64,000 bases of DNA from Patescibacteria group bacterium. Its GTDB lineage: Bacteria; Patescibacteriota; Microgenomatia; UM-FILTER-40-11. The notes beneath the pieces were generated by a model. It saw only the letters and a program-made list of their open reading frames with translations, was not told the DNA's origin and did no database searches. Below are positions 2,607-29,206 of the stretch, in pieces. Each line of letters begins with the position of its first letter. The stretch's first letter is position 1. The DNA is taken from assembly GCA_035530075.1 (NCBI GenBank), contig DATKVM010000002.1:24818-88817 (forward strand), in the 5' to 3' direction. The translations under genes and the position numbers were made by a program.

Positions 2607-3245
2607 TTAGGGGCAGGTATTAGGCATTAAACTACAGACACCAGTACTTAAACAGGCGCTCTGGGTCATCCATGGCGGTAAACACGAAGAAACTCCAGAC
2701 AAAAAGACCCCCTTACAGGCTCCACTTTCACAACAATAACAAGTTGTTCCACTAGGTGGCGATGATGGAGCCACTGTTGGTTCAGATGAACCAGAAGAAC
2801 TCCCCACCGTGCAAGTACTACTTCCCGGGGTAGCTCCCTCACCACTCAAACCGTTGGAACAAACGATAAAATCCGATTCACTTCTCTCCAAATTTGCTGC
2901 CAAAACATAATCTATTCCGTCAGAAGAAGAATAGTACAGATAATCAGAATAAACTCCTTCTTCTGCCAAAACATCATTAAGGCAAGCGCCGCTTAAATAG
3001 TCAACCATCAGGGTACAAAGGTTATCAATATCACCGCTAGCCACCGGGTACATGGAACTATGAGCGGAAGCATAATTTTCCAGGGCGGTCCGATATTGAT
3101 TTAAATCGGATTTTCGCTGAGCGTCCCGAGCTCCTTTCTCGGCAGTTAAATAGCGAGCAGTGCCAAAAGCGGCCAAAATCCCAATGATAGAAATGACCAC
3201 CAATAATTCGATCAAGGTGAAGCCGATTTTTGTTTTTTCTCTCAT
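2607..3245 (-). CDS. type IV pilin with a Cys/Ser-rich C-terminal region
   Basis: KIGFTLIELLVVISIIGILAA. The C-terminal 60 aa contain about 10 Cys (TTCYCCESGACKG...). Confidence 0.8.
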   Translation of the reverse strand: MREKTKIGFTLIELLVVISIIGILAAFGTARYLTAEKGARDAQRKSDLNQYRTALENYASAHSSMYPVASGDIDNLCTLMVDYLSGACLNDVLAEEGVYSDYLYYSSSDGIDYVLAANLERSESDFIVCSNGLSGEGATPGSSTCTVGSSSGSSEPTVAPSSPPSGTTCYCCESGACKGVFLSGVSSCLPPWMTQSACLSTGVCSLMPNTCP

Positions 3246-3721
3246 GGCGCGTGAACCTCAAATTTTTTGCCGGAACTACAACCCCCATCCGCTTCTCCCT
3301 GAGGGTCGGAAGCGTTTTCCAAACAAGCCTTCAGAGTATAATCCAGAGGGTCAGTGTCATTCCGATCATAGTGATAAGCATACTCGCCGATATTAGCCGG
3401 GTCTGTCGGCACCGCCCTCATATAAACCGTGCCTCCCGTGCCCTCTAGGGCCGTGGCCATGGTATCCCAATCCGTGTCCGGAGGATAAGCCGGTTTTGGC
3501 TGGTCATGTTTATACATTTCCAAGGCTTTTTGAATCTCAATAAAATCACTTTTCCGTTGGGCATCCCGGGCTCTCTCTCTTACCCCCGTCATATTGCTAA
3601 TAAGCAGGGTGGCCAGAACCCCAATGATGGAAATGACCACCAATAATTCGATTAAGGTAAATCCCTTCTTTATCTCCTTAATACTTAATGCTTGATACTT
3701 GCTACTTAATACCCTTCTCAT
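3242..3721 (-). CDS. type IV pilin
   Basis: KKGFTLIELLVVISIIGVLATLL. Confidence 0.8.
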   Translation of the reverse strand: MRRVLSSKYQALSIKEIKKGFTLIELLVVISIIGVLATLLISNMTGVRERARDAQRKSDFIEIQKALEMYKHDQPKPAYPPDTDWDTMATALEGTGGTVYMRAVPTDPANIGEYAYHYDRNDTDPLDYTLKACLENASDPQGEADGGCSSGKKFEVHAP

Positions 3722-4305
3722 GGTGACAGATTAGAGCTGGCTACCCCATAATTATAACTTTTGTCGGTTACGCTCCCGCAATCTGCTTGGAGAGTCGCTT
3801 TTGGATCCTGTTTATTTTCCAGTTTAGCATAAAGTTTATAACCAGAAGGTAAGTCATTTTTAGAATAACAATATTCAGGATTGCCGGTAGGATCTTTGGG
3901 AAGCTCTTTCATATAAAGTGTGTTGCTATCCTTCATTTCTGCGCTTCCCCAAGTTAAGGCAACCTCAATCTTAATTTTTCCTCCTTCTGACCCCGGATAG
4001 TTACCATAGTCGTTGTAGTACATTTCTAAGGCCCGCTGCACCTGTTCCAAATCCGATTTTCTTTTAGCATCTCTGGATTTAAGCTGGCTACTACGGAAAC
4101 TATTTAAACCCACGGTTGCCAAAATGCCCAAAATCGCCATAACAATCAAAAGCTCAATCAAGGTAAAACCTTGACAAGCTTTGCTTATTAAAGTGAAGCC
4201 GCGTCGCGGCTGAACTTTATCAAGGTTCTTGCGAAGCAAGGTTCTTATAAGGGTGAAACCCTTGAAAGCTTTGCTTATCAAGGTGAAACCCGAACAATTT
4301 TTCAT
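3718..4305 (-). CDS. type IV pilin with a tandemly repeated GFTLI N-terminal motif. The start is reassigned to the ATG at 4305.
   Basis: The ORF-track entry 3718..4563 overlaps pilin 4310..4972, so its 5' end is unlikely to be real. The internal Met gives MKNCSGFTLISKAFKGFTLIRTLLRKNLDKVQPRRGFTLISKACQGFTLIELLIVMAILGILATVG. Confidence 0.6.
   Translation of the reverse strand: MKNCSGFTLISKAFKGFTLIRTLLRKNLDKVQPRRGFTLISKACQGFTLIELLIVMAILGILATVGLNSFRSSQLKSRDAKRKSDLEQVQRALEMYYNDYGNYPGSEGGKIKIEVALTWGSAEMKDSNTLYMKELPKDPTGNPEYCYSKNDLPSGYKLYAKLENKQDPKATLQADCGSVTDKSYNYGVASSNLSP
4141..4305 (-). repeat. imperfect tandem repeat of roughly 30-60 nt encoding repeated GFTLI(S/R) motifs at the pilin N-terminus
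   Basis: The reverse strand has four copies: ggtttcaccttgataagcaaagctttcaag, ggtttcacccttataagaacc..., ggcttcactttaataagcaaagcttgtcaa, ggttttaccttgattgag. Differences sit mainly at synonymous positions. Confidence 0.7.
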
Positions 4306-4309
4306 TTTC

Positions 4310-4972
4310 TTAATTGCACTCACGTAAAGGCTCCTCCGGCGTCCCGCACTTATTTTGACAACAAGCTTCGTCAATACAAGAACCAATATAAATATAATTG
4401 GGAGAACATTGCTCTGAGCCCGAAAGTTGCTGGCAAACCCCGCTAAAGCAGCCATAGAAGTCGGCGGGAGGGCTCGTTCCTCCACCGGGAGTAGTCCCGG
4501 GAGTAATGGTCGTCGTCTCCAGTCGGATATTGGAAACCACATAATTGCCTTTATCGGCGCCATAGGTGATAACCTTCTCTAATTCTAAGGTAGCATAAAT
4601 AGCGTATTGCTTACAATTGGGGTCAAGACGCTGATAAACATAAGGCTTTTTAGTCAGGGGATCACAAGGAACCGGATTTAAGTAAGCGGTAAAATCGGCG
4701 GCTGGCCGGCAAGTATTCGCGTCTTGGTAAACTTGCACCGGATAACAGGGATGGTCGCCCCCGTAATCTTCCACCGCCGTGACAATCTTTTTTAAATCGG
4801 ATTTCCGCCGACCATCACGAGCCTTAGCGATTTGATAACTAGGCTTAACGGCAAAAACCGTCAGTAAAATTAAAACTCCTAACGCAGCTACTACCACTAA
4901 GATTTCCGTTAAGGTCATTCCCGCCTTTAAAGAAAGAGTTTTTGACTGAAAGAGAGGATTTTTTCTCCCCAT
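4310..4972 (-). CDS. type IV pilin-like protein (G-MTLTEIL variant) with a Cys-rich C-terminus
   Basis: LSLKAGMTLTEILVVVAALGVLILL. The C-terminus is GCFSGVCQQLSGSEQCSPNYIYIGSCIDEACCQNKCG. It overlaps pilD by about 46 nt. Confidence 0.65.
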   Translation of the reverse strand: MGRKNPLFQSKTLSLKAGMTLTEILVVVAALGVLILLTVFAVKPSYQIAKARDGRRKSDLKKIVTAVEDYGGDHPCYPVQVYQDANTCRPAADFTAYLNPVPCDPLTKKPYVYQRLDPNCKQYAIYATLELEKVITYGADKGNYVVSNIRLETTTITPGTTPGGGTSPPADFYGCFSGVCQQLSGSEQCSPNYIYIGSCIDEACCQNKCGTPEEPLRECN

Positions 4973-5715
4973 AAAACGGTAATAATGATCGCGGCGGCCA
5001 AAAACGGGCCAAAAGCAATTTTTTGGCCAAACCTGGCTTTTTTAACTAAAATTAGTATGACCCCGACTATTGCCCCTGTCAAGAAAGCCAAATAAAAAGC
5101 AATTATTATTTTAGGAAAACCCAAAACTAAACCCATTAAAAAGGCCAGCTTCACATCACCCAATCCCATACCCCGGCCGCGGGTAACCACCCGAATTAAA
5201 AACAAAAATAAAGCGGCGCCGACGGCGGGGAGAAGAGTAGTAAGCAGTAAGTAGTGGGTAGTCAGGTGGGGAACGAAGATTTTTGATAAAAGAAAAAGAA
5301 AAATTACCGGCAGAAGAATTTCGTCGGGAATAATTTGCTGCTCAAGGTCAATAAAAAAGATGGCAATTAGGGCAGAAAACAAAACCCAAGTTAGCCCTAC
5401 CTCCGCTATCCCTAAGTAACCTAAGTTACTTAAGTTACCTAGGCAAGTTGCTCCTAAAACAAACAAAGTTCCGGTCAAAAGCTCAACTACCGGATAGCGC
5501 CAGGAAATAGGGGAGTGACAATACCGACAATGTCCCCTTAACCAAGCAAAAGATAAAAGGGGAACATTATCAAACCAAGCAATTTTCCGGCGGCACTTTG
5601 GGCAAAATGACCGCCCCCAAACTACCGACAATCCTCGGGGGAGCCGATAAATTACCACATTCAGAAAACTCCCGATACCCAAACCCAGCAGGCCCAAAAG
5701 GAATATCGGTATCAT
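4927..5715 (-). CDS. pilD: prepilin peptidase (A24 family)
   Basis: CPKCRRKIAWFDNVPLLSFAWLRGHCRYCHSPI zinc-binding tetracysteine. Multiple TM helices and a GLGDVKLAFLMG motif. Confidence 0.9.
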   Translation of the reverse strand: MIPIFLLGLLGLGIGSFLNVVIYRLPRGLSVVWGRSFCPKCRRKIAWFDNVPLLSFAWLRGHCRYCHSPISWRYPVVELLTGTLFVLGATCLGNLSNLGYLGIAEVGLTWVLFSALIAIFFIDLEQQIIPDEILLPVIFLFLLSKIFVPHLTTHYLLLTTLLPAVGAALFLFLIRVVTRGRGMGLGDVKLAFLMGLVLGFPKIIIAFYLAFLTGAIVGVILILVKKARFGQKIAFGPFLAAAIIITVLWGEKILSFSQKLFL

Positions 5716-5718
5716 CCT

Positions 5719-6321
5719 TTACAAGCAAACATAACACTCCCCCTTAGCCTCTTTCGGAGTCGCCGCATCGGTACAATCCGCGGAACAAGCTAAGTCATCC
5801 AGGCCGGTTCCCCAAACTTGAGTCTCGCTCTTGCAGGCGTTATACGCTTCGGTGGTAAATGACAGCGAAGCCGGGATAAAACACGCATAAGCACTGTTAT
5901 CGGTTACCGAAAAATACAAATAAACCTTTTTCCTGCTCGTTAATCTGGCCTTAAATCCACCCTTAACTTCCGCCGTATTTTCCAGATTCTCCAACATGGT
6001 CGGTGGAGAATTCCCATATACTATTACGGCTGAAGCCTCTAATAGCCCCGTGTCTAAACCTACATTTTGCGTACTGCCAACTGTATCTTGCCAAGGATAA
6101 TATTGAAGGGAAGCATAAAACCGGTCAATCGCGCTTAACAGTTGCTCCGAGTCCGACCGATCCCCGGTGTCCCGACCTTTATCGATTTGCTCAATCGGGT
6201 TAATCGCCGAAAGCACCGCTATTGCTAAAACTCCCAAAACCGCAATCACAATCAAGAGCTCAATCATCGTAAACCCCTGCCTTAATTTGGAAATTTGGAA
6301 TTTGAAATTAGAAATTTTCAT
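5719..6321 (-). CDS. type IV pilin. The start is moved to the second ATG, which has a strong RBS.
   Basis: RQGFTMIELLIVIAVLGVLAI. The upstream sequence gaaggggggtgaaATGaaa gives a GGGGGGTGA Shine-Dalgarno before MKISNFKF. The C-terminus has 5 Cys. Confidence 0.75.
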   Translation of the reverse strand: MKISNFKFQISKLRQGFTMIELLIVIAVLGVLAIAVLSAINPIEQIDKGRDTGDRSDSEQLLSAIDRFYASLQYYPWQDTVGSTQNVGLDTGLLEASAVIVYGNSPPTMLENLENTAEVKGGFKARLTSRKKVYLYFSVTDNSAYACFIPASLSFTTEAYNACKSETQVWGTGLDDLACSADCTDAATPKEAKGECYVCL

Positions 6322-6413
6322 TTCACCCCCCTTCATTTAGTAACTTTTAACACAATCTTGGTTATTTGCTAGTATGGCTTTTGGCGAACTGACTGTCAAG
6401 TCGAATTTCGGCT

Positions 6414-7619
6414 TTAAAATTGACTGGTCAAATTATAAATCGGCATAATAATCGCGATAACCAAAAAACCCACGCCCACACCCAGTAATATCATTATTAA
6501 GGGCTCGATAGCAGTTGTCAAGCCCTTTAAGGACTCTTCCGATTCGGACTGAAAGTAGTGGGAAACTTTTAACATCACCTCATCAACTTTACCCGTTTCT
6601 TCGCCCACCGAAAGCATTTGCGAGAGGATTTGAGGGAAAAAACGATTTTCCGAAAGTGCGCTTGAAAGAGGGAAACCTTTCTCTACCTGTTTGCGGGCCG
6701 ATAAAACTCCCTCTTCGATAATCGCGTTATCCGCGGTCTTGGAAGAAATTTCCAAAGCCTCAACAATGGAAATACCGGCGCCAACTAAAAGCCCCAAAGT
6801 CCGGGTTAGCTCGGCCAGGGCAATTTGAATTTGGAGTTTCCCGAAAATGGGGATTTTAAACTTTATTTCATCAATTCTCTTTTTACCTTCTTTGTCTCGA
6901 TTAATAGCTCGGTAAAGATAGGCCAAGCCGATTAAAAGGAAAATCAAAAGCCACCAGAAAGAAACCATAAACCGCGAGATGGAAATTAAAATTTTAGTCG
7001 CTTGAGGTAATTGAGCGTCAAACTCGGTATAAAGGGCGGTTAACTTGGGGATAACAAAGACCATCATCATAAACATCACCCCTCCCATTCCCACCACAAT
7101 GATAATCGGGTAAAGTAAGGCGCCTTTTATTTTTGCCTGAAATTCTCGTTGCATTTCCAGATTGTCCGCCAGCCGACCCAAGATGTTGTCCAAAACCCCG
7201 GCTGATTCACCCGCCTTGACTAAAGAGACATAAACGGTCGAAAAAATCTTCGGGTGTTTCTGCAGGGCATCGGCGAGACTGGCGCCACCTTCAACATCAC
7301 GCAAGATTGCGCCGACCGCCTCCGTCAACTGACTCTCCCGTTGAGATTTCAAAATCGTGAGTGCTTCAGTCAGGGGAAGGCCGGCGTTAATCATCGTCGA
7401 AAGCTGGCGAGTAAAGGTGGAAACCTCAGTTAAAGAAACTTTTTTGAATAGCCGCTTGTAAAGGCCAACAAAAAGCCCTTCGCTTTGCTGCCGAATGAAG
7501 TAGGGGAAATAGCGCTTTTCTCTTAAAATCGAGATTGCCTGTTTGCGGTCTTGAGCCTCCACCGTCCCTTTAATATCTCGGCCTTCATTATCCTTAACTT
7601 TATAGACGAAAGTTGGCAT
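6414..7619 (-). CDS. pilC: type IV pilus assembly platform protein PilC (GspF family)
   Basis: 401 aa with two T2SS-F repeats, three TM segments and a GspF-like layout. It lies between pilD and pilT. Confidence 0.85.
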   Translation of the reverse strand: MPTFVYKVKDNEGRDIKGTVEAQDRKQAISILREKRYFPYFIRQQSEGLFVGLYKRLFKKVSLTEVSTFTRQLSTMINAGLPLTEALTILKSQRESQLTEAVGAILRDVEGGASLADALQKHPKIFSTVYVSLVKAGESAGVLDNILGRLADNLEMQREFQAKIKGALLYPIIIVVGMGGVMFMMMVFVIPKLTALYTEFDAQLPQATKILISISRFMVSFWWLLIFLLIGLAYLYRAINRDKEGKKRIDEIKFKIPIFGKLQIQIALAELTRTLGLLVGAGISIVEALEISSKTADNAIIEEGVLSARKQVEKGFPLSSALSENRFFPQILSQMLSVGEETGKVDEVMLKVSHYFQSESEESLKGLTTAIEPLIMILLGVGVGFLVIAIIMPIYNLTSQF

Positions 7620-7633
7620 TTTTTTGGTTTTCC

Positions 7634-8695
7634 TTAAAATTGTTTCATCAGCCGGGAAACCTCTTCCGGCCGGAGGGCAAAGAGTCGAGCGGTGTCCAGG
7701 CTAATTTTACCTCCTTGAATTAATTGGACCAAAGATGTCTCCAGGGTTGACATCCCTAAACTGCCCGAGGTTTGCATAATATTATCAAGCATGTGGGTTT
7801 TTCCTTCACGGATAGCCGTTCTTACCGCCGGACTGGCAACCATTATTTCATAAGCCAAAACGCGACCGGAACTAACTCGCGGCACCAATCGCTGCGACAA
7901 GACAGCCTCTAAGGCAGTGGCCAATTGCATCCTGACCTGACTTTTAGAATCTTCGGGAAAGGCGTCAATAATCCGGTCAATTGTCTGAGAAGCGGAGTTA
8001 GTATGGAGAGTGGAAAAAACTAAGTGGCCGGTTTCAGCAATCGTCAAAGCGGCGGCAATGGTATCATAGTCCCGCATTTCCCCAATCAAGACGACATCGG
8101 GATCCTCCCGCAAAGTCGAGCGCAAGGCAGCGGTCCAGGAATGCGTATCCAAGCCTAACTCTCGTTGAGAAATCAAGGAGCGGCGACTAGTAAAAACAAA
8201 TTCAACCGGATCCTCAATCGTAATCACATTACAAGACCGCTGGCTCAGAATTTCTTTAATAATCGCAGCCAAAGTCGTTGATTTACCATGACCGGTTGGT
8301 CCAGTAACCAAAACGAATCCCTGCTTTAGCTTAGAAAATTCATAGCATATTTTTGGCAAACCCAATTCATCAATGCCTTTAATTTCCAAGGGGACAAACC
8401 GTAGAGCTCCCGCCAGTGTTCCTTTCTGATGATAAACATTGACCCGAAAACGGCCTTTGCCCGCCAATTCAAAAGAAAAATCAATTTCTTTGTTATTGGC
8501 CAGCAGTTCTTTTTGTTCTTCCTGCAAAAGAGAGAAAAGTAAAGTTTCCACCTCTTCCTTGGTCAAAAGGTTTTCGCCGCTCACTAGGGAAAGCTCGCCA
8601 TGAATTCTTAGGCAAGGTGGCATACCTACCTGTAAGTGCAAGTCCGAAGCCCCTTTATCAATCGTTAACTGTAAGAGATTCTGAATATCTGCCAT
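7634..8695 (-). CDS. pilT: twitching-motility / retraction ATPase PilT
   Basis: Walker A GPTGHGKSTT, Asp box, His box and a size of about 350 aa typical of PilT. Confidence 0.9.
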   Translation of the reverse strand: MADIQNLLQLTIDKGASDLHLQVGMPPCLRIHGELSLVSGENLLTKEEVETLLFSLLQEEQKELLANNKEIDFSFELAGKGRFRVNVYHQKGTLAGALRFVPLEIKGIDELGLPKICYEFSKLKQGFVLVTGPTGHGKSTTLAAIIKEILSQRSCNVITIEDPVEFVFTSRRSLISQRELGLDTHSWTAALRSTLREDPDVVLIGEMRDYDTIAAALTIAETGHLVFSTLHTNSASQTIDRIIDAFPEDSKSQVRMQLATALEAVLSQRLVPRVSSGRVLAYEIMVASPAVRTAIREGKTHMLDNIMQTSGSLGMSTLETSLVQLIQGGKISLDTARLFALRPEEVSRLMKQF

Positions 8696-8733: not shown

Positions 8734-10440
8734 CTAGTCCTGACCGACTCGCAACACTTCCTCTAAACTCGTCGTCCCCTCTATTGCTTTCAGATAACCG
8801 TCTTGCTTAAGAGTAATCATCCCTTCGGCAATGGCCGTTTTCTCAATATCGAGAGCCGCTGAATGCTCGATTACTAACCGGGCCACTTTCTCTGTCACCG
8901 GCAGGACTTCAAAAATCCCAATCCGACCGAAATAGCCCGTATTATTACACTCGGGGCAGCCCTTACCGCGGCTTAAAAGAAGCTTCCCGTCGCTTTTCAA
9001 GGGAAAGAGGGAGCCCAAAACTGTTTCGATGCCTGCCCGAACATCAGGTGGTGGTTCAAAGGTTTCCTTGCAACTAGCACAAATCCGACGGCAGATTCGC
9101 TGAGCGACAATCGCCGTTAAAGTAGAAGCGAGCAGAAAAGGTTCGGCTCCCATATCTAATAATCGGGGCATCGCCTGAGAAGCACTTTTTGTGTGAATCG
9201 TGGAAAAAACTAAGTGGCCAGTTAACGAAGCTTGAATCGCCAAATCGGTCGTCTCTCGATCGCGGATTTCCCCGACCATAATAATGTTCGGATCCTGCCG
9301 CAAAAAAGACCGCAAACCAGAAGCAAAGGTTAATCCGGCACCCGGATTAATTTGCACTTGATTGACGCCGAGAATCTGGTATTCAACCGGATCCTCAAGG
9401 GTAACAATATTGACTTTGGTCGTGTTAATCTTGGAAAGAATCGAGTAAAGAGTGGTCGTTTTCCCGCTTCCCGTCGGTCCACAGATAAGGATAATCCCAT
9501 GCGGTCGCAAGATAGCATCTTCCAGGTTTTTTAAGGCCCGGCCGCGCAAACCAAGCTCCAGCAATGTCGGCACTCCGCCACTTTTTTTCAAAAGCCGCAT
9601 CACGATTTTCTCACCGTGAACCGTAGGTAGGGTAGAAACACGCAAATCCACCTCTTGGCCGTCGGCCTTAAAATTAAAGCGGCCGTCTTGAGGAATCCGC
9701 TTTTCGTCAATTTTCATCCCCGTTAAAACCTTAATCCGAGAGACCAACGCTTCATGCACGCTTTTAGGCAAAACTAATTTTTCGTGCAAAATACCGTCAA
9801 TCCGGTAACGAATCCGGGTTTTTTCAGCTGACGGTTCAATGTGAATATCCGAGGCGCGGGAGCGGATCGCAAATTCTAAAATGGTGGAGACAATTTTAGC
9901 AATCGGCTCCCGGCGAATAACTTCAGCGTCACGAGTAATATCCAGGGTTTTCTCTTGGCCGACGGCTGTCTCTTTCAAAGCCGCCGTAACTTCCGTGGTT
10001 AAATTTTGAGAATACCGCTCATTAATCGCCCGGTTAATATCTTCCGCCAGAGCCAGATAGACTTTAATTTTCTTACCGGCTTTGGCTTCGATAAATTCAA
10101 TCGCCTCCAAATCCCAAGGGTTAGCAAAAGCGACGGATAACTCTTTACCATCGCCGGAAATAGCAAAGGGGATTAAATTAAATCTTTCGGCAACCGACTT
10201 GGGGACAAGAGCTAAAACTTCCGGAGCCGACCCGACTTCCTGCAGGCCAACAAAGGGAATATTAAAAAGTTCTCCCTTGACCTTGGCGATTTCTTTTTCC
10301 TCCACCCCTCCCAGTTTTTTTAGGATTTCCTCTTCTGGCCGGCCGGAGGCGGCAAACTCTAACTTAACCTTTTCCGCCTGTCCGGGAGTTAAAAGTTTTT
10401 TTGTGAGAAGAAGCTTTGTTATACTTAGGGAATCGGGCAT
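8734..10440 (-). CDS. pilB: type IV pilus assembly ATPase PilB (GspE family)
   Basis: 568 aa. Has an N-terminal GSPII-E_N-like region, Walker A GPTGSGKTTT, a tetracysteine CxxC...CxxC and the GspE signature. Confidence 0.9.
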   Translation of the reverse strand: MPDSLSITKLLLTKKLLTPGQAEKVKLEFAASGRPEEEILKKLGGVEEKEIAKVKGELFNIPFVGLQEVGSAPEVLALVPKSVAERFNLIPFAISGDGKELSVAFANPWDLEAIEFIEAKAGKKIKVYLALAEDINRAINERYSQNLTTEVTAALKETAVGQEKTLDITRDAEVIRREPIAKIVSTILEFAIRSRASDIHIEPSAEKTRIRYRIDGILHEKLVLPKSVHEALVSRIKVLTGMKIDEKRIPQDGRFNFKADGQEVDLRVSTLPTVHGEKIVMRLLKKSGGVPTLLELGLRGRALKNLEDAILRPHGIILICGPTGSGKTTTLYSILSKINTTKVNIVTLEDPVEYQILGVNQVQINPGAGLTFASGLRSFLRQDPNIIMVGEIRDRETTDLAIQASLTGHLVFSTIHTKSASQAMPRLLDMGAEPFLLASTLTAIVAQRICRRICASCKETFEPPPDVRAGIETVLGSLFPLKSDGKLLLSRGKGCPECNNTGYFGRIGIFEVLPVTEKVARLVIEHSAALDIEKTAIAEGMITLKQDGYLKAIEGTTSLEEVLRVGQD

Positions 10441-11304: not shown

Positions 11305-13281
<1,977 letters not shown>

Positions 13282-13282
13282 C

Positions 13283-15931
13283 ATGCAAGAGAAAAACATT
13301 CATCACGATATCGGCAAAATCAAAACGGTTGAAATTACCGAAGAAATGGAAAAGTCCTACCTGGACTACGCTATGAGCGTGATTGTCCAGCGGGCCCTAC
13401 CTGATGTGCGCGACGGCTTAAAGCCGGTCCACCGCCGGATTTTGTACGCCATGAACCAGATGGGCTTGGGTCATAGCTCCAAATTCACCAAGTCGGCCAA
13501 AGTAGTCGGAGAAGTGATCGGCAAATACCATCCCCACGGCGATATGCCGATTTACCAAGCCTTGGTCAGACTGGCCCAAGATTTTGCCATGCGCTACCCC
13601 CTAATCACTGGCCAGGGGAATTTTGGCTCGATTGACGGCGACCCACCGGCGGCCATGCGTTACACCGAGGTGAAAATGGCTTCGATTGCTCAAGAAATGC
13701 TGGCCGACATTGAAAAAGAGACGGTTGATTATATTGATAATTTCGACCAGACTCTAAAAGACCCAGTTTTCCTACCTTCCGCCTTACCAAACCTCCTTTT
13801 AATGGGGGCAGAAGGTATTGCTGTCGGGATGGCCACAAAAATTCCTCCTCACAATTTAACGGAAGTGGTTGACGCCACTATCCTGCTAATCGAAAAAGGC
13901 AAGATGGGGGAATCCCATGAGGCCCGAGGCGAGGCCCAAATCGAGTTTCGGCGGATTTCTTTAGAAGAAGATGAAAAGAAAGAGGGAAAAGCCACCGACA
14001 GCCGATCACTCCGGTTTGAGAGCGAAGCGACCATTGACGAGATAATGCAGTTTATTAAAGGCCCGGATTTCCCGACCGCCGGTCAAATCTTTGACCAAAA
14101 CGAAATCCGGGAAGCTTATACCACCGGCAAGGGGAAAATCATTGTCCGGGGGAAGGCGGAAATTGAAGAGGGTAAGGCTGGCAAATTCCAAATCGTGATT
14201 ACTGAACTGCCTTATCAAGTCAATAAAGCTCAGCTGGTGGCCAAAATTGCTAATTTGGCCAAGGAAAAGAAAATTGACGGCATTGCTGATTTGCGCGATG
14301 AGTCTGACCGACACGGCATCCGAGTTGTGGTTGAACTTAAACGAGATGCCCGGCCAAAATCGACTCTTAATAATTTATTTAAGAAAACCGAGCTTCAGAC
14401 TTCTTTCCCGACTAACTTTGTCGCTCTGGTTGACGGGACCCCAATGACCTTAAACCTTAAACAAATTTTGACCGAGTATATTAATCACCGGCACTTAGTC
14501 GTGACTCGGCGAAGTGAATTTGAGCTGAAAGAAGCTCAGAATCGCGCTCATATTTTAGAAGGCTTATTGATTGCTCTGGGGAACCTAGACGCCGTAATTG
14601 AAACGATTAAGAAATCCAAAGATGCGGATGAAGCGCGAACTAACCTAATGACCAAATTCAAGCTGACCGAAATCCAGGCAACGGCGATTTTAGATATGCA
14701 ACTTCGGCGCTTGGCGGCCCTGGAAAGAAAAAAACTTGAGGATGAATATCAAGCAATTAAAGAAAAGATTGACTTTTTAACGGACCTTTTAGCTCATTCC
14801 GACAAAATCCTTAAAGTAATCAGTCAGAACCTAGCTGAAATTAAAGCCAAATACGGGGACGAGCGCCGGACAAAGATTTACAAAAAGAAAGCGGAAGAAT
14901 TTTCCGAAGAAGATTTGATCCCCAATGAAGAAGTGATTATTTCCATTACTTCTACTGGTTATATTAAAAGAGTGCCGCGAGGCACCTACCGGACTCAGCG
15001 CCGTGGCGGCAAGGGAGTTATGGGAATGAAAACTAAGGAAGAGGATGAAATTGCTCATCTGCTGAGTGCTAATACTCATGACTATCTTCTCTTTTTCACT
15101 AATAAGGGGCGGGTTTTCCGAATCAGAGTTTGGGAGCTACCTGAAAGTTCCCGCCAATCTAAAGGCCAGGCGATTGTTAACTTGATTAATGTGGCTCAAG
15201 GAGAAACTATTCAGTCAGTTCTGACCATCAGCGCTCAAGGCAATCCCAACCAAAAATATCTTTTTATGGTCACGAATAAGGGAACCGTCAAGAAAACGGA
15301 AATCTCTAAATATGATAATGTTCGCTCTTCCGGTTTAATCGCTATCAAGCTTGAAGAAGGGGATGAGCTTTGCTGGGCAAAGGTAACCTCGGGCAATGAC
15401 TATATCCTTCTGGTTTCCCACGAGGGAAAATCTATCCGTTTTAACGAAAACGATGTTCGGCCAACCGCGCGAGATACCATGGGGGTCATCGGCATCGCCC
15501 TAAAGAAAGAAGATTATGTCGTCGGAATGGAAGCTTTGTCCAGCCGCAGCAGAGATCCTAAAGATAAGAGAAAGAAAGTCTTTCGGGATATTTTGGTGGT
15601 AATGGAAAGGGGAGTGGGCAAGCGAACCGGCTTTACGGAATTCCCGGTTCAAAAACGAGGCGGAATGGGCGTTAAAGTGGCAGAAATTACCCCAAAGACC
15701 GGCAAGGTTGTTTGCTCGCAATTTGTGGACGAATCAGTGGAGCAAATTGTCCTTACCTCCAGGCAGGCCCAAATGATTAAACTGCCCCTGAAAAACATTC
15801 CCCGCTTAGGCCGGGCCACTCAAGGGGTCATCTTAATGCGCTTTGACAAAAGCACCACCGATGCCGTCTCCGCCGTCACTCATTTAGACAAAGAAGCCGA
15901 AGAAGAAGCCGCAGCGGTGGAAGAAAAATAA
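13283..15931 (+). CDS. gyrA: DNA gyrase subunit A
   Basis: Contains AMSVIVQRALPDVRDGLKPVHRRILYAM, an active-site Tyr region and a C-terminal beta-pinwheel. 882 aa. It starts 2 nt after the gyrB stop. Confidence 0.97.
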   Translation: MQEKNIHHDIGKIKTVEITEEMEKSYLDYAMSVIVQRALPDVRDGLKPVHRRILYAMNQMGLGHSSKFTKSAKVVGEVIGKYHPHGDMPIYQALVRLAQDFAMRYPLITGQGNFGSIDGDPPAAMRYTEVKMASIAQEMLADIEKETVDYIDNFDQTLKDPVFLPSALPNLLLMGAEGIAVGMATKIPPHNLTEVVDATILLIEKGKMGESHEARGEAQIEFRRISLEEDEKKEGKATDSRSLRFESEATIDEIMQFIKGPDFPTAGQIFDQNEIREAYTTGKGKIIVRGKAEIEEGKAGKFQIVITELPYQVNKAQLVAKIANLAKEKKIDGIADLRDESDRHGIRVVVELKRDARPKSTLNNLFKKTELQTSFPTNFVALVDGTPMTLNLKQILTEYINHRHLVVTRRSEFELKEAQNRAHILEGLLIALGNLDAVIETIKKSKDADEARTNLMTKFKLTEIQATAILDMQLRRLAALERKKLEDEYQAIKEKIDFLTDLLAHSDKILKVISQNLAEIKAKYGDERRTKIYKKKAEEFSEEDLIPNEEVIISITSTGYIKRVPRGTYRTQRRGGKGVMGMKTKEEDEIAHLLSANTHDYLLFFTNKGRVFRIRVWELPESSRQSKGQAIVNLINVAQGETIQSVLTISAQGNPNQKYLFMVTNKGTVKKTEISKYDNVRSSGLIAIKLEEGDELCWAKVTSGNDYILLVSHEGKSIRFNENDVRPTARDTMGVIGIALKKEDYVVGMEALSSRSRDPKDKRKKVFRDILVVMERGVGKRTGFTEFPVQKRGGMGVKVAEITPKTGKVVCSQFVDESVEQIVLTSRQAQMIKLPLKNIPRLGRATQGVILMRFDKSTTDAVSAVTHLDKEAEEEAAAVEEK

Positions 15932-17618: not shown

Positions 17619-18125
17619 ATGAATAAAAAAGAAACCGCCCCTAAAGGAGAAAAGAAAACTACTTCCGCCTCTTCCAAACTTCCTAAGCTCCATCGGTCCG
17701 AGACCGACCGCGTCTTGGCGGGTATCGCCGGGGGTTTAGGCGAATATTTCCATCTTGATCCGGTAGTTATCCGTCTAATCTTTATTGTCCTTTTCTTACA
17801 AGGGGCGGGCTTTTTGCTTTATTTAATCCTTTGGATTGTCATCCCCACCCAGTCCAAACTGGAAAAATCTTCCCAGGAGATCTTTAGGGATAATGCTCAG
17901 GAAATTAAAGATAAAGCCGAGGCTTGGACGGCGGACTTAAGAGCTCAAGGGAGAAGGCAAAACACTCAGCTTTGGTTCGGAATTTTGGTTATCTTCTTAG
18001 GCCTTTGGCTACTTTTAGAAAATTTCGGCTTTTTCAGTTTTTTCCGTCTCGAAAAGTTTTGGCCACTGCTATTAATCCTTTTAGGGATGGCTATCTTAAA
18101 TAAAAGAGAAAATGAGCAAGGATAA
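17619..18125 (+). CDS. PspC-domain membrane protein
   Basis: RSETDRVLAGIAGGLGEYFHLDPVVIRLIFIVLFL, the PspC consensus. Confidence 0.8.
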   Translation: MNKKETAPKGEKKTTSASSKLPKLHRSETDRVLAGIAGGLGEYFHLDPVVIRLIFIVLFLQGAGFLLYLILWIVIPTQSKLEKSSQEIFRDNAQEIKDKAEAWTADLRAQGRRQNTQLWFGILVIFLGLWLLLENFGFFSFFRLEKFWPLLLILLGMAILNKRENEQG

Positions 18126-18528
18126 AGAATTGGCGAGAGCAGAAAAAGTTCCCGAGACCCCAGAATCAAAGGTAATTTATCGAGAAAAGAAAAGTGGCGG
18201 GAGCGGGGCTTGGGCGGTCTTCTTAATCGCCGGTGGAATAATTTTGCTTTTGAATAACTTAGGCTTTTTACCCTGGGAAATTTGGGCAGTTTTATGGCAA
18301 TTTTGGCCAATACTTTTAATCCTCGGCGGCATCGAAATCGCTTTAGGTCATTCTAGTTTCTCCCGCTTTCTTACTCTGCTTTTAGGGTTAGTGGTGGCCG
18401 CTTTTATTCTGGCCTTAGCGTTAGCCCCTCAGAGTCCGGCCATTGACCGCTTCCTTCAGCGATATTTTCCCCAGCTGCCGGAAAATTTCCGGATTCAGCC
18501 AAGGCAATCAGAAGAAGTCTTCACTTAG
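18112..18528 (+). CDS. membrane protein, LiaF/LiaI-like partner of the PspC proteins
   Basis: Four predicted TM helices. It sits between two PspC-domain genes and overlaps the upstream gene by 14 nt. Confidence 0.5.
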   Translation: MSKDKELARAEKVPETPESKVIYREKKSGGSGAWAVFLIAGGIILLLNNLGFLPWEIWAVLWQFWPILLILGGIEIALGHSSFSRFLTLLLGLVVAAFILALALAPQSPAIDRFLQRYFPQLPENFRIQPRQSEEVFT

Positions 18529-18588
18529 TGCCCCCAATTGTTACTAAAAACTAACCGATTTTAGACCCTCTGTTGATAGGCTGGGGCA

Positions 18589-19056
18589 ATGAGCCAAGAA
18601 TCGCTTTACCAATGCCCCAAGCCACCCCGGCTTTATCGTTCGGAAGATAACCGGGTTATGGGTGGAGTAGCGGCCGGCTTGGCGGCTTATTTTGACCTGG
18701 ACCCTAATTTTATCCGTCTGCTTTTCATCTTGTCGGCGCTTATCTTCGGAGTCGGCATTTTGGTTTATCTTTTCCTTTGGATTTTGTTGCCGACCGAATC
18801 AAAATTAAAACAACCGGAAAGTAAAAATATTAAAGAGAATGTCCAGGATATCGCTTACAAGAGTCGGGGAGCGGCTAAAGAGACAAGCTCTCTTTTTGAC
18901 GCCGAACCGCGGGTTTGGCTAGCCGTAGCTATTATTCTAATTGGCTTGCTCTTTGGCATCCTGACTGGTTTTGGGTTTTTAGACCTTTTTGGCCTAGGAC
19001 CGCTTTTGCTTTTAGCTCTAGCTTTTCTTGCCTTACTCATCCTCATCCGCCCCTAA
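18589..19056 (+). CDS. PspC-domain membrane protein
   Basis: LYRSEDNRVMGGVAAGLAAYFDLDPNFIRLLFIL. Confidence 0.8.
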   Translation: MSQESLYQCPKPPRLYRSEDNRVMGGVAAGLAAYFDLDPNFIRLLFILSALIFGVGILVYLFLWILLPTESKLKQPESKNIKENVQDIAYKSRGAAKETSSLFDAEPRVWLAVAIILIGLLFGILTGFGFLDLFGLGPLLLLALAFLALLILIRP

Positions 19057-19073
19057 ATTTAATCCAATTTTTC

Positions 19074-19102
19074 TTGACAGAAAAGTTAAAACTAGTTAAA
19101 CT
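19074..19102 (+). promoter_or_regulatory. candidate promoter TTGACA-17 nt-TAAACT, giving a leaderless or near-leaderless Nudix mRNA
   Basis: TTGACA at 19074-19079, a 17-nt spacer, then TAAACT at 19097-19102. The ATG lies at 19112. Confidence 0.4.
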
Positions 19103-19111
19103 TCTTGACAT

Positions 19112-19528
19112 ATGTCCCAAAACAAAAAAGAAGCCATTGTTGTGGGCTTAGGAATTATTGCCAAAGAGGGGAGAGTTCTTATCGGTCAAAGGAAGGACCC
19201 CGACCCTTATGTTAAAGAACTGACCTGGGTCTTCCCGGGCGGCAAATTCGAGAGCCTGGATCTTGAAAAGGAATTGATCAGGCATCTTAAAGAGGAAACC
19301 GGTCTTGACGTTAATATTAACCAGCTCGTTCATGCTCGGCTGATCCCTGACTCACCGGAAAAGAAAGTCAAAGTTATTGCCCTTTATTATCATTGCGCGG
19401 CGGTGTCAGGCCAAGAAAAGGCCGGTGGTAGCCTAGGTAAGCTAGAGTGGGTTCCGGCGATGAAGGTCTTTCACTTCTTCACCACTTCCACGGCTGATGA
19501 AGTGGTTGCCTTTCTGGGAACACTTTAG
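19112..19528 (+). CDS. Nudix hydrolase
   Basis: Nudix box GGKFESLDLEKELIRHLKEETGL (G-x5-E-x7-REuxEExGu). Confidence 0.8.
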   Translation: MSQNKKEAIVVGLGIIAKEGRVLIGQRKDPDPYVKELTWVFPGGKFESLDLEKELIRHLKEETGLDVNINQLVHARLIPDSPEKKVKVIALYYHCAAVSGQEKAGGSLGKLEWVPAMKVFHFFTTSTADEVVAFLGTL

Positions 19529-19881
19529 AAAGAGGCCTTATTTGCCTCAAATTTCTTCCACACTCTTTGAAGTGTTTCCTGGGGAACTATTTTAAGCTCA
19601 ACTTTGGTGAGCATAAAAATAATCTCAGCGGTTAAATACAACCAATCCCCAAACTCGACAACTGAATGCTCACGACAAGTACCCTTAATTTGGTCGTGCT
19701 TAGAGTACAGTTTATTTCCTTTAAACCAAAGCATTGGTATTTCAAAGAGATGTAAAAACCAAGCTTGTATCCGAGGAGATAGTCTACCATTCCAACGATC
19801 AAACTGAGGAATGAACTCTTGGTGAATTTTTTTGAGAGTTATGTTTGGCATCGATCTGTCTATTGACTTGCGTCTATGCAT
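19525..19881 (-). CDS. hypothetical protein, 118 aa
   Basis: ORF with no recognisable motif. The stop overlaps the Nudix stop region and the start abuts the xer stop. Confidence 0.4.
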   Translation of the reverse strand: MHRRKSIDRSMPNITLKKIHQEFIPQFDRWNGRLSPRIQAWFLHLFEIPMLWFKGNKLYSKHDQIKGTCREHSVVEFGDWLYLTAEIIFMLTKVELKIVPQETLQRVWKKFEANKASF

Positions 19882-29021: not shown

Positions 29022-29105
29022 GCTGCGGTGCTGGAATGGTAGACAGGCTAGTCTCAAAAACTAGTGGCTCAAAAAGCCGTGAGAGTTCGACTCTCTCCCG
29101 CAGCA
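29022..29105 (+). tRNA. tRNA-Leu (anticodon CAA), type II with a long variable arm; CCA not encoded
   Basis: Acceptor GCTGCGG pairs with CCGCAGC. Has U8, a 3-bp D stem, anticodon stem CTAGT/ACTAG with loop CTCAAAA, a long variable arm GGCTCAAAAAGCC, T arm GAGTTCGACTCTC and discriminator A. Confidence 0.85.
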
Positions 29106-29206
29106 CAAAGAGGGTTCGCCTGCCCTGAGCGAACTTGTACTGAGCAGTTCGATAAACTCACTGTAAACTTCGTCGAAGTAGTCGAAGGGACTCCCTCCCC
29201 CGGCAC

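What the first reader, a model, noticed from the sequence alone, without database searches (positions are those of the whole stretch)
4141..4305. Pilin gene carries three extra in-frame copies of the GFTLI prepilin cleavage motif ahead of the canonical one
Seen in sequence: the N-terminus reads MKNCS-GFTLISKAFK-GFTLIRTLLRKNLDKVQPRR-GFTLISKACQ-GFTLIELLIVMAILG.

The DNA repeats differ mostly at synonymous positions (ggtttcacc / ggcttcact / ggttttacc), so the peptide motif is conserved. This argues that the repeats are translated and under selection, not a random slippage scar.

Only the last copy has Glu at +5 and a following hydrophobic helix, as PilD processing and assembly require.

Inference: the extra copies could form an unusually long leader, act as decoy cleavage sites, or be a substrate for length variation.
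Basis: partly seen in the sequence, partly recalled or inferred. Interest (0 to 1): 0.55.

Follow-up and report, generated by a model that had tools for sequence, protein, structure and literature searches.

The report
Hairpin repeat modules in pilin leader
A pilus-subunit gene of an uncultured ultra-small (Patescibacteria) bacterium has a long cleaved-off leader made of three in-frame repeat modules that form base-paired hairpins; the extra "GFTLI" cleavage motifs look like translated hairpin arms, not selected extra cleavage sites, and the same modules recur and move among pilin genes of related bacteria.

Summary
The minus-strand pilin gene (stop 3718; start ATG 4305, or more likely GTG 4323 behind a GGAGGAG Shine-Dalgarno) has four in-frame GFTLI motifs. 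Only the last is a canonical prepilin site. The identical block occurs in 11 independently assembled contigs, so it is not an assembly artefact.

The leader consists of two recurrent module types:
- Module A: GFTLI-SKA[C/F][K/Q], 30 nt.
- Module B: GFTLI-RTLLRKNLDKVQPRR, 60 nt.
- The order here is A-B-A.

Each module is a nested palindrome made of sense and antisense copies of the cleavage-site codons.

Evidence that pairing, not peptide, is conserved:
- Across related pilins the stems keep pairing through compensatory changes. Some are at synonymous sites and some change the peptide.
- Upstream GFTLI copies decay in orthologues (GFILR, RFVLI, DSVLI).

Evidence that the modules are mobile and specific to pilin leaders:
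- They are 90-99% identical between different pilin paralogues and genomes, while the flanking coding DNA is 52-62% identical.
- They were found only in pilin leaders.
- Copy number differs between two near-identical Daviesbacteria contigs.

Best reading: a pilin-leader-specific hairpin cassette that spreads by recombination. It is tolerated because PilD removes the leader. It probably acts in cis on the mRNA, but that function is inferred, and RNA versus DNA pairing is unresolved. I found no Rfam match or literature precedent.

The parts
3718..4323 (-). Pilin gene (T2SS-G-like type IV pilin). The ORF runs from the likely start GTG 4323 (PGAP uses ATG 4305) to the stop at 3718. The mature protein starts at Phe codon 4167.
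   Evidence: ORF. PF07963 E=2.4e-12 (residues 42-65) and PF08334 E=6.5e-7. NCBI HUW24058.1 'prepilin-type N-terminal cleavage/methylation domain-containing protein', Patescibacteria group. 1386 homologues.
4331..4337 (-). Shine-Dalgarno GGAGGAG, 7 nt upstream of the in-frame GTG at 4323-4321.
   Evidence: Several gene callers start the protein at this GTG (P0001, P0127-P0129).
4261..4290 (-). Module A, copy 1 (GFTLISKAFK). GFTLI copy 1 is at 4290-4276. The hairpin AUAAGC-AAA-GCUUUC lies at about 4278-4264.
   Evidence: The covariance model R1, built without this copy, hits 4237-4296 at 53.5 bits, E=2e-9.
4201..4260 (-). Module B (GFTLIRTLLRKNLDKVQPRR). GFTLI copy 2 is at 4260-4246.
   Evidence: R2 hits 4180-4260 at 92 bits, the only significant hit in the 64-kb window.
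4249..4263 (-). Stem-loop AAGGGU-UUC-ACCCUU centred on the Phe codon of copy 2 (HP2-type).
   Evidence: Read from the sequence. Covariation of this stem type.
4228..4240 (-). Small stem-loop HPb, CUUGC-UUC-GCAAG, inside module B.
   Evidence: Other stems at the same place in relatives: CCUGG..CCAGG, CUUGAC..GUCAAG, UUGGC..GCCAA, UUUCUU..AAGAAA.
4184..4224 (-). Long stem-loop HPc. An antisense-like arm (LDKVQPR codons, 4224-4205) pairs with the codons of RGFTLIS (copy 3, 4203-4184).
   Evidence: Inverted repeat I1, 20 nt, 80% complementary. Covariation on alignment A2, including synonymous-site pairs 48-78 and 54-72.
4171..4200 (-). Module A, copy 2 (GFTLISKACQ). GFTLI copy 3 is at 4200-4186. 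Stem-loop HP1, AUAAGC-AAA-GCUUGU, is at 4188-4174.
4153..4173 (-). Canonical prepilin site (Q-G|FTLIE). Stem-loop HP2, CAAGGU-UUU-ACCUUG, at 4173-4159 is centred on the Phe+1 codon. Glu+5 is at 4155-4153.
   Evidence: (6/6 Watson-Crick pairs versus 1-3/6 in the 7 other pilin genes of the window).
4927..5715 (-). Prepilin peptidase PilD (A24_N_bact + Peptidase_A24), the enzyme expected to remove the leader.
4310..4972 (-). Upstream 220-aa pilin-like gene (KAG|MTLTEILVV). Its stop lies 4 nt before ATG 4305 and it overlaps GTG 4323. It is a conserved syntenic neighbour.
   Evidence: Synteny.

Best explanation
The extra GFTLI motifs are the translated sense arms of three in-frame hairpin modules (A-B-A) that occupy the cleavable leader of this type IV pilin.

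Each module is a nested palindrome. It is built from sense and antisense copies of the roughly 15-20 nt that encode the prepilin cleavage site, plus short private stems.

What is conserved is base pairing in the nucleic acid, not the peptide.

The modules form a family specific to pilin leaders in Patescibacteria. They are flanked by the GFTLI(E) codons that all pilin genes share. Through this shared sequence they can be copied or lost between pilin paralogues by homologous recombination or gene conversion, and they expand or contract by slippage.

They are tolerated in frame because PilD cuts at the last G|FTLIE and discards everything upstream.

Most likely role (inferred, not shown): cis-acting mRNA stem-loops that set the translation rate and/or stability of this cistron. 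The operon is tightly packed and translationally coupled and has no intergenic space for such signals.

Shown: the anatomy, recurrence, covariation, mobility between paralogues, restriction to pilin leaders, and likely translation.

Inferred: RNA rather than DNA as the level at which pairing matters, the regulatory role, and the recombination route of spread.
For: 1. Structure
- The leader RNA folds at -64.2 kcal/mol against -43.3 for shuffles, z=-5.4.
- Of 8 pilin genes in the window, only this one has a structured 5' region: z=-5.2 against -0.6 to +1.7.
- Folding is stronger than the peptide alone forces. With synonymous recoding the window gives z=-3.5 (0 of 300 recodings as stable). All 8 orthologues tested are negative, from -0.4 to -3.5.

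2. Covariation
- Module A, 15 instances: 89% of cells paired, 4 pairs with changes on both sides, score 0.187 against 0.091 in shuffles (0/500). Sliding the partners gives 28-54% paired.
- Module B, 12 instances: 17 double-sided cells against 5.2 in shuffles, score 0.238 against 0.120 (0/500).
- Some covarying pairs are at synonymous sites, where the peptide cannot be the cause: Lys AAA/AAG with Thr ACT/ACC, and Gln CAG/CAA with Gly GGC/GGT.
- Some compensatory pairs change the peptide: AGC/GCT to AAC/GTT, CUUG/CAAG to CUGG/CCAG, and CAGCC/GGC to CAGGC/GCC.
- The cleavage-site stem has 5.4 of 6 Watson-Crick pairs behind module A (n=16) against 2.7 of 6 at 74 other pilin sites, p=7e-9.

3. Peptide constraint is weak
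- Upstream GFTLI copies decay in orthologues.
- The Cys position varies at codon position 2 (C/F/Y/S/H).

4. Mobility
- Module B is 90-99% identical to copies in other paralogues (L065:1909, L065:3032, L076:4587). The adjacent N-terminal-helix codons are about 60% identical and the rest about 52%.
- L065 is 100% identical to window 3814-7770 but carries module B in two more paralogues, whose positional counterparts in the window lack it.
- L054 and L021 differ only by a 60-nt, two-unit indel.

5. Specificity
- Covariance models R1 and R2 hit only 4147-4296 in the 64-kb window, and only pilin leaders in the loci searched with R2.
- BLAST of the leader against all fetched loci hit pilin genes only, either their leaders or the shared GFTLIE-coding start.
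- No viral copies were found.

6. Translation
- SD plus GTG at 4323, and no downstream in-frame ATG or GTG.
Against: - No expression or structure-probing data exist. The regulatory role is pure inference.
- G-U and A-C counts at paired positions are equal (11 vs 11 in A1; 4 vs 4 in the core of HPc). An mRNA structure therefore cannot be told apart from a DNA hairpin or cruciform.
- The synonymous-recoding excess is strong only in the window and L072. It is weak in L070, L073 and L075.
- Several orthologues carry only degenerate remnants, which also fits birth and decay of tolerated repeats.
- Covariation could partly come from template-switch 'correction' of quasi-palindromes rather than from selection.
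- The instances are phylogenetically non-independent. The module-A set was also ascertained with a pattern that requires two intact GFTLI motifs.
- No promoter- or terminator-like site was found on the coding strand in this leader.
Confidence: 0.5

Rival explanations
1. Selfish or neutral in-frame palindromic repeat with no host function. The modules arise by slippage or template switching at the naturally palindromic GGT-TTC-ACC cleavage-site codons. They spread between pilin genes by gene conversion. They persist only because the leader is disposable, in the manner of Rickettsia palindromic elements.
For: - Patchy distribution among paralogues and genomes.
- Copy-number difference between near-identical contigs.
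- Decay series in orthologues.
- Perfect 30-nt tandem units in L008.
- Module identity far above that of the flanks.
- In-frame palindromic elements are a known phenomenon (RPEs; PMC10969869).
Against: - Stems are kept by compensatory changes across diverged lineages, including five different HPb stems. This suggests selection for pairing, although quasi-palindrome correction could mimic it.
- Copies occur only in pilin leaders.
- No terminal inverted repeats with a target-site duplication, and no transposase, were seen.
- The same modules occur in distant Patescibacteria lineages: Daviesbacteria, Jorgensenbacteria and Microgenomates-like contigs.
Confidence: 0.25
2. Peptide-level function. 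The extra G|FTLI sites would be real PilD substrates or decoys, or a selected long leader. For example, they could slow or order processing, or release N-methylated decapeptides (FTLISKAFKG, FTLISKACQG).
For: - All four copies in the window are intact, with only synonymous differences.
- The first copy is always preceded by a typical short basic leader (M-K-K-x-G) in relatives.
- The reading frame stays open through every module, including a 42-nt insertion in L069.
- PilD is encoded about 600 nt upstream.
Against: - Upstream copies lose Gly-1, Phe+1 or Thr+2 in many orthologues (NFTLR, RFVLI, GLALR, DSVLI, GFILR).
- Spacer residues vary in chemistry while the nucleotides keep pairing.
- Covariation at synonymous sites has no peptide explanation.
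- The open frame is required anyway, because the start codon is upstream.
Confidence: 0.13
3. DNA-level recombination signal. The hairpin-forming direct and inverted copies of the shared cleavage-site codons would promote exchange of mature-pilin cassettes between paralogues or strains, giving pilin variation.
For: - No G-U over A-C bias, so DNA pairing is not excluded.
- Modules are shared by different paralogues.
- The pilin array downstream of 3814 is replaced between the window and the otherwise identical L065.
Against: - The window/L065 breakpoint is at 3814, in the 3' part of the gene, and not at the modules.
- All pilin genes are co-oriented and no silent cassettes were seen.
- No dedicated recombinase is adjacent. 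The nearest tyrosine recombinase (19881-20843) is Xer-like and about 10 kb away.
- In the window only one of 8 pilin genes carries modules.
Confidence: 0.1
4. Artefact: an assembly error, or an untranslated 5' UTR with translation starting downstream.
For: One gene caller (Logan, P0130) started the protein at an internal Met after the repeats.
Against: - The DNA of that contig is identical to the window across the whole leader.
- 11 contigs from independent assemblies carry the block.
- A start at that internal Met would lack the cleavage site.
- There is no in-frame ATG or GTG between 4305 and the site, and a strong SD precedes GTG 4323.
Confidence: 0.02

Closest known systems
Type IV prepilin class III signal peptide (PilD substrates; Pfam PF07963 N_methyl)
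   Same: The last copy is a textbook site: G-1, F+1, E+5 and a hydrophobic helix. PilD is encoded in the same operon.
   Different: Textbook leaders (my own knowledge) are short, up to roughly 30 aa, and carry one cleavage motif. This leader is 45-51 aa with three additional G|FTLI motifs. I found no description of tandem prepilin motifs in three full-text searches or in a Saccharibacteria T4P paper.
Rickettsia palindromic elements (RPEs) and other MITE-like repeats inserted in frame in genes
   Same: Palindromic repeat DNA that sits in frame inside protein-coding genes, is translated, and recurs in several genes (PMC10969869).
   Different: RPEs are about 150 bp and insert into many unrelated genes. 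These modules are 30-60 nt and are built from the host gene's own cleavage-site codons. They were found only in pilin leaders, and PilD would remove them from the protein.
Stabilising or regulatory mRNA stem-loops in polycistronic operons (REP elements, puf or pap operon hairpins; structure-mediated translational coupling)
   Same: Stable stem-loops at a cistron boundary in a long operon could set differential expression. This comparison rests on my own knowledge and is inference.
   Different: Those elements are intercistronic. Here the stems lie inside the coding sequence, in the part of the protein that is cleaved off. No functional data exist. No Rfam family matches.
Translational bypass elements (phage T4 gene 60; mitochondrial 'byps')
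   Same: A short inserted segment with a hairpin, flanked by identical codons that could serve as take-off and landing sites.
   Different: There is no stop codon or frame disruption in the segment, so bypassing is not needed. Read-through gives a processable prepilin.
In-frame VNTR or contingency repeats in surface-protein genes
   Same: 30-nt in-frame tandem units whose number differs between near-identical contigs (L054/L008 against L021).
   Different: The units lie in the discarded leader, not in the mature protein or promoter. No copy-number variation was seen in this lineage.

Membership tests
Type IV pilin / prepilin (PilD substrate) | N-terminal motif G|F-T-L-I-E followed by a hydrophobic helix of about 20 residues | tested here: met
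   PF07963 E=2.4e-12 at residues 42-65. Sequence.
Type IV pilin / prepilin (PilD substrate) | Prepilin peptidase and assembly genes (PilB, PilC, PilT) in the genome or operon | tested here: met
   PilD at 4927-5715 by Pfam. The ORFs at 6414-7619, 7634-8695 and 8734-10440 are read as PilC, PilT and PilB. PilB is named GspE/PulE family protein or PilB by sources. T2SSF genes sit at the matching syntenic position in related loci. PilT is assigned from the sequence only.
Type IV pilin / prepilin (PilD substrate) | Single short basic leader before the cleavage site | tested here: not met
   The leader is 45 aa from ATG 4305 or 51 aa from GTG 4323, and it contains three extra G|FTLI motifs.
Type IV pilin / prepilin (PilD substrate) | Actual cleavage and N-methylation by PilD | not testable with these tools
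   Needs N-terminal proteomics or an in vitro assay.
MITE / RPE-like mobile palindromic repeat | Many dispersed copies in unrelated genes or intergenic DNA | tested here: not met
   R1 and R2 (filters off) hit only 4147-4296 in the 64-kb window. All R2 hits in the loci are pilin leaders, and BLAST of the leader hits pilin genes only. Only 64 kb of this genome could be searched.
MITE / RPE-like mobile palindromic repeat | Terminal inverted repeats with a target-site duplication | tested here: inconclusive
   The modules are palindromic and flanked by direct GFTLI-coding repeats. The flanking copies differ at synonymous sites, so they are not a fresh duplication.
MITE / RPE-like mobile palindromic repeat | In-frame insertion into ORFs, with translation | tested here: met
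   Every module is a multiple of 3 nt and free of stop codons.
Conserved structured RNA (cis-regulatory element) | Base pairs maintained by compensatory substitutions across homologues | tested here: met
   (0/500 shuffles reach the observed covariation score). Synonymous-site covariation. Caveat: the sequences are related, and the module-A set was ascertained with a pattern.
Conserved structured RNA (cis-regulatory element) | Strand-specific signal (G-U tolerated, A-C avoided) showing RNA rather than DNA | tested here: inconclusive
   G-U and A-C counts are equal.
Conserved structured RNA (cis-regulatory element) | Match to a described Rfam family | tested here: not met
   There are only chance-level hits, E of at least 1.5.
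Intrinsic terminator / attenuator | G+C-rich stem followed by a U tract on the coding strand | tested here: not met
   The scan finds no minus-strand terminator in 4100-4350.
Translational bypass element | Stop codon or frame disruption in the gap that makes bypass necessary | tested here: not met
   The reading frame is open through the whole leader.
In-frame VNTR (length-variable repeat) | Copy-number differences between closely related genomes | tested here: inconclusive
   Met for the Daviesbacteria pilin: L054/L008 have four GFTLI copies and L021 has two, and the contigs are otherwise 99.96-100% identical. Not met in this lineage, where 11 contigs are identical. Read-level data were not available.

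The most novel reading that the evidence does not exclude
A previously undescribed, pilin-specific mobile cis-regulatory cassette. Short hairpin modules would use the universally conserved prepilin cleavage-site codons in two ways. The codons serve as stem arms, and they serve as the homology that lets the cassette hop between pilin paralogues. The cassette lives inside the disposable leader-peptide codons of streamlined Patescibacteria genomes and tunes which pilins are made and how much. A second possible layer is that PilD also cuts the upstream sites and releases N-methylated decapeptides.
Probability: 0.2. Interest if true: 0.8.

Novelty: new variant of a known kind. Interest (0 to 1): 0.62.

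Why it matters
Type IV pili are thought to be central to how Patescibacteria (CPR) attach to hosts and take up DNA. How these bacteria control the many pilin genes in one operon is unknown.

- If the modules are functional, the discarded leader-peptide codons are being used to carry nucleic-acid signals in genomes with almost no intergenic space. That would be a new place to look for regulation.
- Annotation is affected already. Three gene callers chose three different starts for this gene.
- Any prediction tool that assumes one cleavage site per prepilin could be misled by the extra motifs.
- The module family gives a concrete, testable system for three questions: whether PilD needs Glu+5 or membrane proximity to cleave, how hairpins inside coding regions affect translation, and how short repeats spread between paralogues by gene conversion.

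Tried and rejected
- Tandem Repeats Finder found nothing in 3900-4500. The copies are too diverged and interleaved.
- Rfam at a permissive threshold gave only chance hits.
- The promoter/terminator scan showed nothing on the coding strand in the leader.
- A leader-only search of the 5.8-billion-protein index returned no candidates, so one search was wasted.
- The leader-only HMMER search of representatives gave only 7 hits with E of 0.001 or better. Four are pilins carrying the modules (one, P0132, is the L065 paralogue); the others are unrelated repeats or were not examined.
- Most pattern hits for GFTLI-N16-GFTLI in genomes and metagenomes are unrelated simple repeats, or an oxidoreductase-like protein with GFTFI..GFTLI. 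I set these aside.
- One encoding contig (P0057) could not be fetched.
- Integron-like or invertase-like cassette shuffling was rejected. All genes are co-oriented, the inverted arms are 1 nt apart, no recombinase is adjacent, and the strain breakpoint is not at the modules.
- A lipobox reading of 'SKAC' was rejected. The Cys position varies (C/F/Y/S/H) and Lys at -2 is atypical.
- Internal translation starts after the SD-like GAGG/AAGG in the stems were rejected. No start codon that preserves the cleavage site follows them.
- The G-U versus A-C test to separate RNA from DNA was uninformative.
- Viral contigs contain neither module.
Full report
**1. What is there**

The finding lies on the minus strand, in a type IV pilus operon: PilB 8734-10440, PilT 7634-8695, PilC 6414-7619, a pilin 5719-6336, PilD 4927-5715, a 220-aa pilin-like gene 4310-4972, this pilin, and then six more pilin-like genes down to 633. 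PilC and PilT are assigned from the ORF translations and from synteny with related loci; Pfam was run only on PilD and the pilin genes.

The four GFTLI-coding copies are at 4290, 4260, 4200 and 4170. The pattern occurs 9 times in the window against 0.16 expected by chance. All differences among the four 15-nt copies are synonymous. Only the last copy matches the N_methyl profile.

The protein is HUW24058.1, from a Patescibacteria-group metagenome-assembled genome.

**2. Is it translated, and is it real?**

- A strong Shine-Dalgarno sequence (GGAGGAG, 4337-4331) lies 7 nt before an in-frame GTG at 4323. Several gene callers start the protein there.
- There is no in-frame ATG or GTG between 4305 and the canonical site, only TTG at 4281 and 4239. 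Any functional prepilin must therefore include at least copy 3.
- The same block is present base for base in 11 contigs from NCBI, ENA, JGI and Logan assemblies.

**3. Anatomy beyond the peptide**

The block is not only a direct repeat (44 nt, 90 nt apart, 77% identity). It also contains inverted repeats.
- The codons of LDKVQPR are an antisense-like copy of the codons of RGFTLIS: 20-nt arms, 80% complementary, 1 nt apart.
- The codons xK/Q-G-F-T-L form stems of 6 base pairs around the Phe codon.
- I-S-K-A-C forms AUAAGC-AAA-GCUUGU.

As RNA the leader folds at -64.2 kcal/mol against -43.3 for dinucleotide shuffles, z=-5.4. None of the other seven pilin genes in the window has a structured 5' region (z from -0.6 to +1.7) or a complementary cleavage-site stem (1-3 of 6 pairs against 6 of 6).

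The structure exceeds what the peptide alone imposes. With synonymous recoding the window gives z=-3.5, and 0 of 300 recodings are as stable.

**4. Relatives**

Syntenic orthologues sit in the same order: PilC, pilin, PilD, a gene of about 220 aa, then this pilin. They carry variable versions of the leader:
- GFTLISEAFK-GFTLIELL;
- GFTLIRTLTNVKNLDKSKTYKSR-GFTLIELL;
- three copies in P0117;
- only the antisense arm plus the canonical site in L076;
- degenerate copies (GFILR, GLALR, RFVLI, DSVLI).

A pattern scan for two GFTLI-coding motifs 30 nt apart found further pilin cases:
- Daviesbacteria, with GFTLISRASK three times;
- Jorgensenbacteria;
- an 858-kb contig with three such pilin genes;
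- several others.

A leader-only HMMER search added P0131 (A+B), P0133 (four A-like units plus B) and P0137.

Two module types emerge:
- Module A: GFTLI-S-K-A-[CFYS]-[KQE], with core ATA AGC AAA GCT TGT.
- Module B: GFTLI-RTLLRKNLDKVQP..

The window gene is A-B-A followed by the canonical site.

**5. Peptide or nucleic acid?**

Module A, 15 distinct instances:
- The two-hairpin model has 89% of cells paired and 4 pairs with changes on both sides.
- The covariation score is 0.187 against 0.091 for shuffles (0/500). Slid controls give 28-54% paired.
- Codon -2 and the Leu+3 codon covary as AAG-CTT, GAG-CTC and CAA-TTG.

Module B, 12 instances:
- There are 17 double-sided cells against 5.2 in shuffles. 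The score is 0.238 against 0.120 (0/500).
- Two covarying pairs are at synonymous sites: Lys AAA/AAG with Thr ACT/ACC, and Gln CAG/CAA with Gly GGC/GGT.

Other observations:
- Several compensatory pairs change both amino acids: S/A to N/V, I/C to M/H, L/K to W/Q. In L074, P to A is coupled with Gly-1 to Ala.
- The small module-B stem exists in five different sequence versions.
- The Cys position varies at codon position 2 (C/F/Y/S/H), and charged positions flip sign. This is the opposite of what peptide selection produces.
- Across all fetched loci, canonical sites behind module A have 5.4 of 6 Watson-Crick pairs, against 2.7 of 6 for 74 other pilin sites (p=7e-9).

Caveats:
- The sequences are related.
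- The module-A set was ascertained with a pattern that requires intact motifs.
- G-U and A-C counts are equal, so RNA and DNA hairpins cannot be distinguished.
- The recoding excess is weak in some orthologues.

**6. Mobility and specificity**

- Module B in the window is 99% and 90% identical to copies in two other pilin paralogues of L065, and 90% identical to a copy in a different paralogue of L076. The adjacent N-terminal-helix codons are about 60% identical and the rest about 52%.
- L065 is 100% identical to window 3814-7770. It carries module B in two paralogues whose positional counterparts in the window lack it.
- L054/L008 and L021 are 99.96-100% identical over 3.7 kb except for a 60-nt, two-unit indel.
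- Covariance models of A and B, run with filters off, hit only 4147-4296 in the 64-kb window. All R2 hits in other loci are pilin leaders.
- No copies are present in viral contigs.
- Neighbouring genes are housekeeping (holB-like, gyrB, gyrA). The nearest recombinase is Xer-like and about 10 kb away.

**7. Mechanism**

Best supported: hairpin modules built from sense and antisense copies of the cleavage-site codons sit in the leader, and the extra GFTLI motifs are their translated arms.

The modules spread and are lost through the GFTLI(E) homology that all pilin genes share, and they expand by slippage. PilD cleavage at the last site makes them harmless to the mature pilin.

I infer a cis-acting mRNA role, either tuning translation or stabilising the transcript. 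The gene overlaps or abuts its upstream neighbour, so there is no intergenic room for signals. This step is not shown.

Rivals, in order of weight:
- a neutral or selfish in-frame palindromic repeat;
- a peptide-level decoy or multi-site processing role;
- a DNA recombination signal;
- an artefact (rejected).

**8. Comparison with what is known**

The gene is a bona fide type IV pilin, but it fails the 'single short leader' feature.
- The closest analogue for the modules is the in-frame Rickettsia palindromic element (PMC10969869). Those are larger and insert in unrelated genes.
- Operon stem-loops, bypass elements and in-frame VNTRs each share one aspect.
- No Rfam family matches.
- Full-text searches found no description of tandem prepilin motifs or of such leader modules.

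**9. Verdict**

What is there is a recurrent, covarying, paralogue-hopping family of hairpin modules specific to Patescibacteria pilin leaders. I rate it a new variant of known kinds (in-frame palindromic repeats; structured cis elements). The function is unproven. Interest 0.62.

Noticed in passing
window 3718-3814 versus L065 3113-3233: L065 is 100% identical to window 3814-7770 but diverges downstream. The last ~30 residues of this pilin differ (…ENKQDPKATLQADCGSVTDKSYNYG… against …ENGQDPHCIGGICTPPSADCGGLTKAYNYG…), and the downstream pilin array is different. This looks like a recombination breakpoint inside the gene's 3' part, giving a mosaic pilin locus between strains.
   Followed up: partly
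window 4310-4972 (-): A 220-aa gene between PilD and this pilin. It has a non-canonical pilin-like N-terminus (KAG|MTLTEILVV), no Pfam hit and a Cys-rich C-terminus. It overlaps the end of PilD by 46 nt. A gene of similar size with no Pfam hit sits at the same position in seven related loci.
   Followed up: partly
window 4303-4337 (-): Three gene callers chose three starts for the same DNA: PGAP uses ATG 4305, the ENA and JGI gene calls use GTG 4323, and Logan uses the internal ATG at 4143. The SD GGAGGAG favours GTG 4323.
   Followed up: yes
L048 (about 817 on the minus strand) and L057: More G+C-rich pilin genes, unlike the Patescibacteria ones, have an independent duplication of the cleavage-site codons with unrelated spacers: GFTLIEDVER-GFTLIELL (duplicated through Glu+5) and GFTLMRKHQK-GFTLIELL. 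Leader duplications at this site therefore also arise outside the module family.
   Followed up: no
L017, L025, L032, L037, L052, L060, L068: A recurrent freshwater-metagenome sequence reads 'GFTLIF.RIYGFTLIFYFI…' in one frame and is full of stops downstream. It is conserved across seven contigs, so it may be a non-coding or RNA locus rather than a pilin.
   Followed up: no
L009, L031, L046, L062 (Nanopelagicaceae-like) and L013, L022, L036, L066: There are 15- to 30-nt tandem repeats that read (GFTLI)n or (IIGFGLGFTFI)n in one frame. They are unrelated to pilins and explain most of the pattern hits.
   Followed up: no
window 2607-3245 (-): The 212-aa pilin has a Ser/Pro-rich linker and a Cys-rich C-terminal tail (…TCYCCESGACKGVFLSGVSSCLPPWMTQSACLSTGVCSLMPNTCP). 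It resembles the Cys-rich tail of the 220-aa gene at 4310-4972.
   Followed up: no
window 17619-20843: Paired PspC and LiaF-TM genes (17619-19056), a NUDIX gene and a Xer-like tyrosine recombinase (19881-20843) lie next to gyrB/gyrA (11311-15931). One tRNA-Leu(CAA) is at 29022-29106.
   Followed up: no
L069 4810-4932: A module B copy carries a 42-nt in-frame internal duplication. The duplicated small stem is rewritten from CUUG…CAAG to CUGG…CCAG, a compensatory change within one gene.
   Followed up: partly
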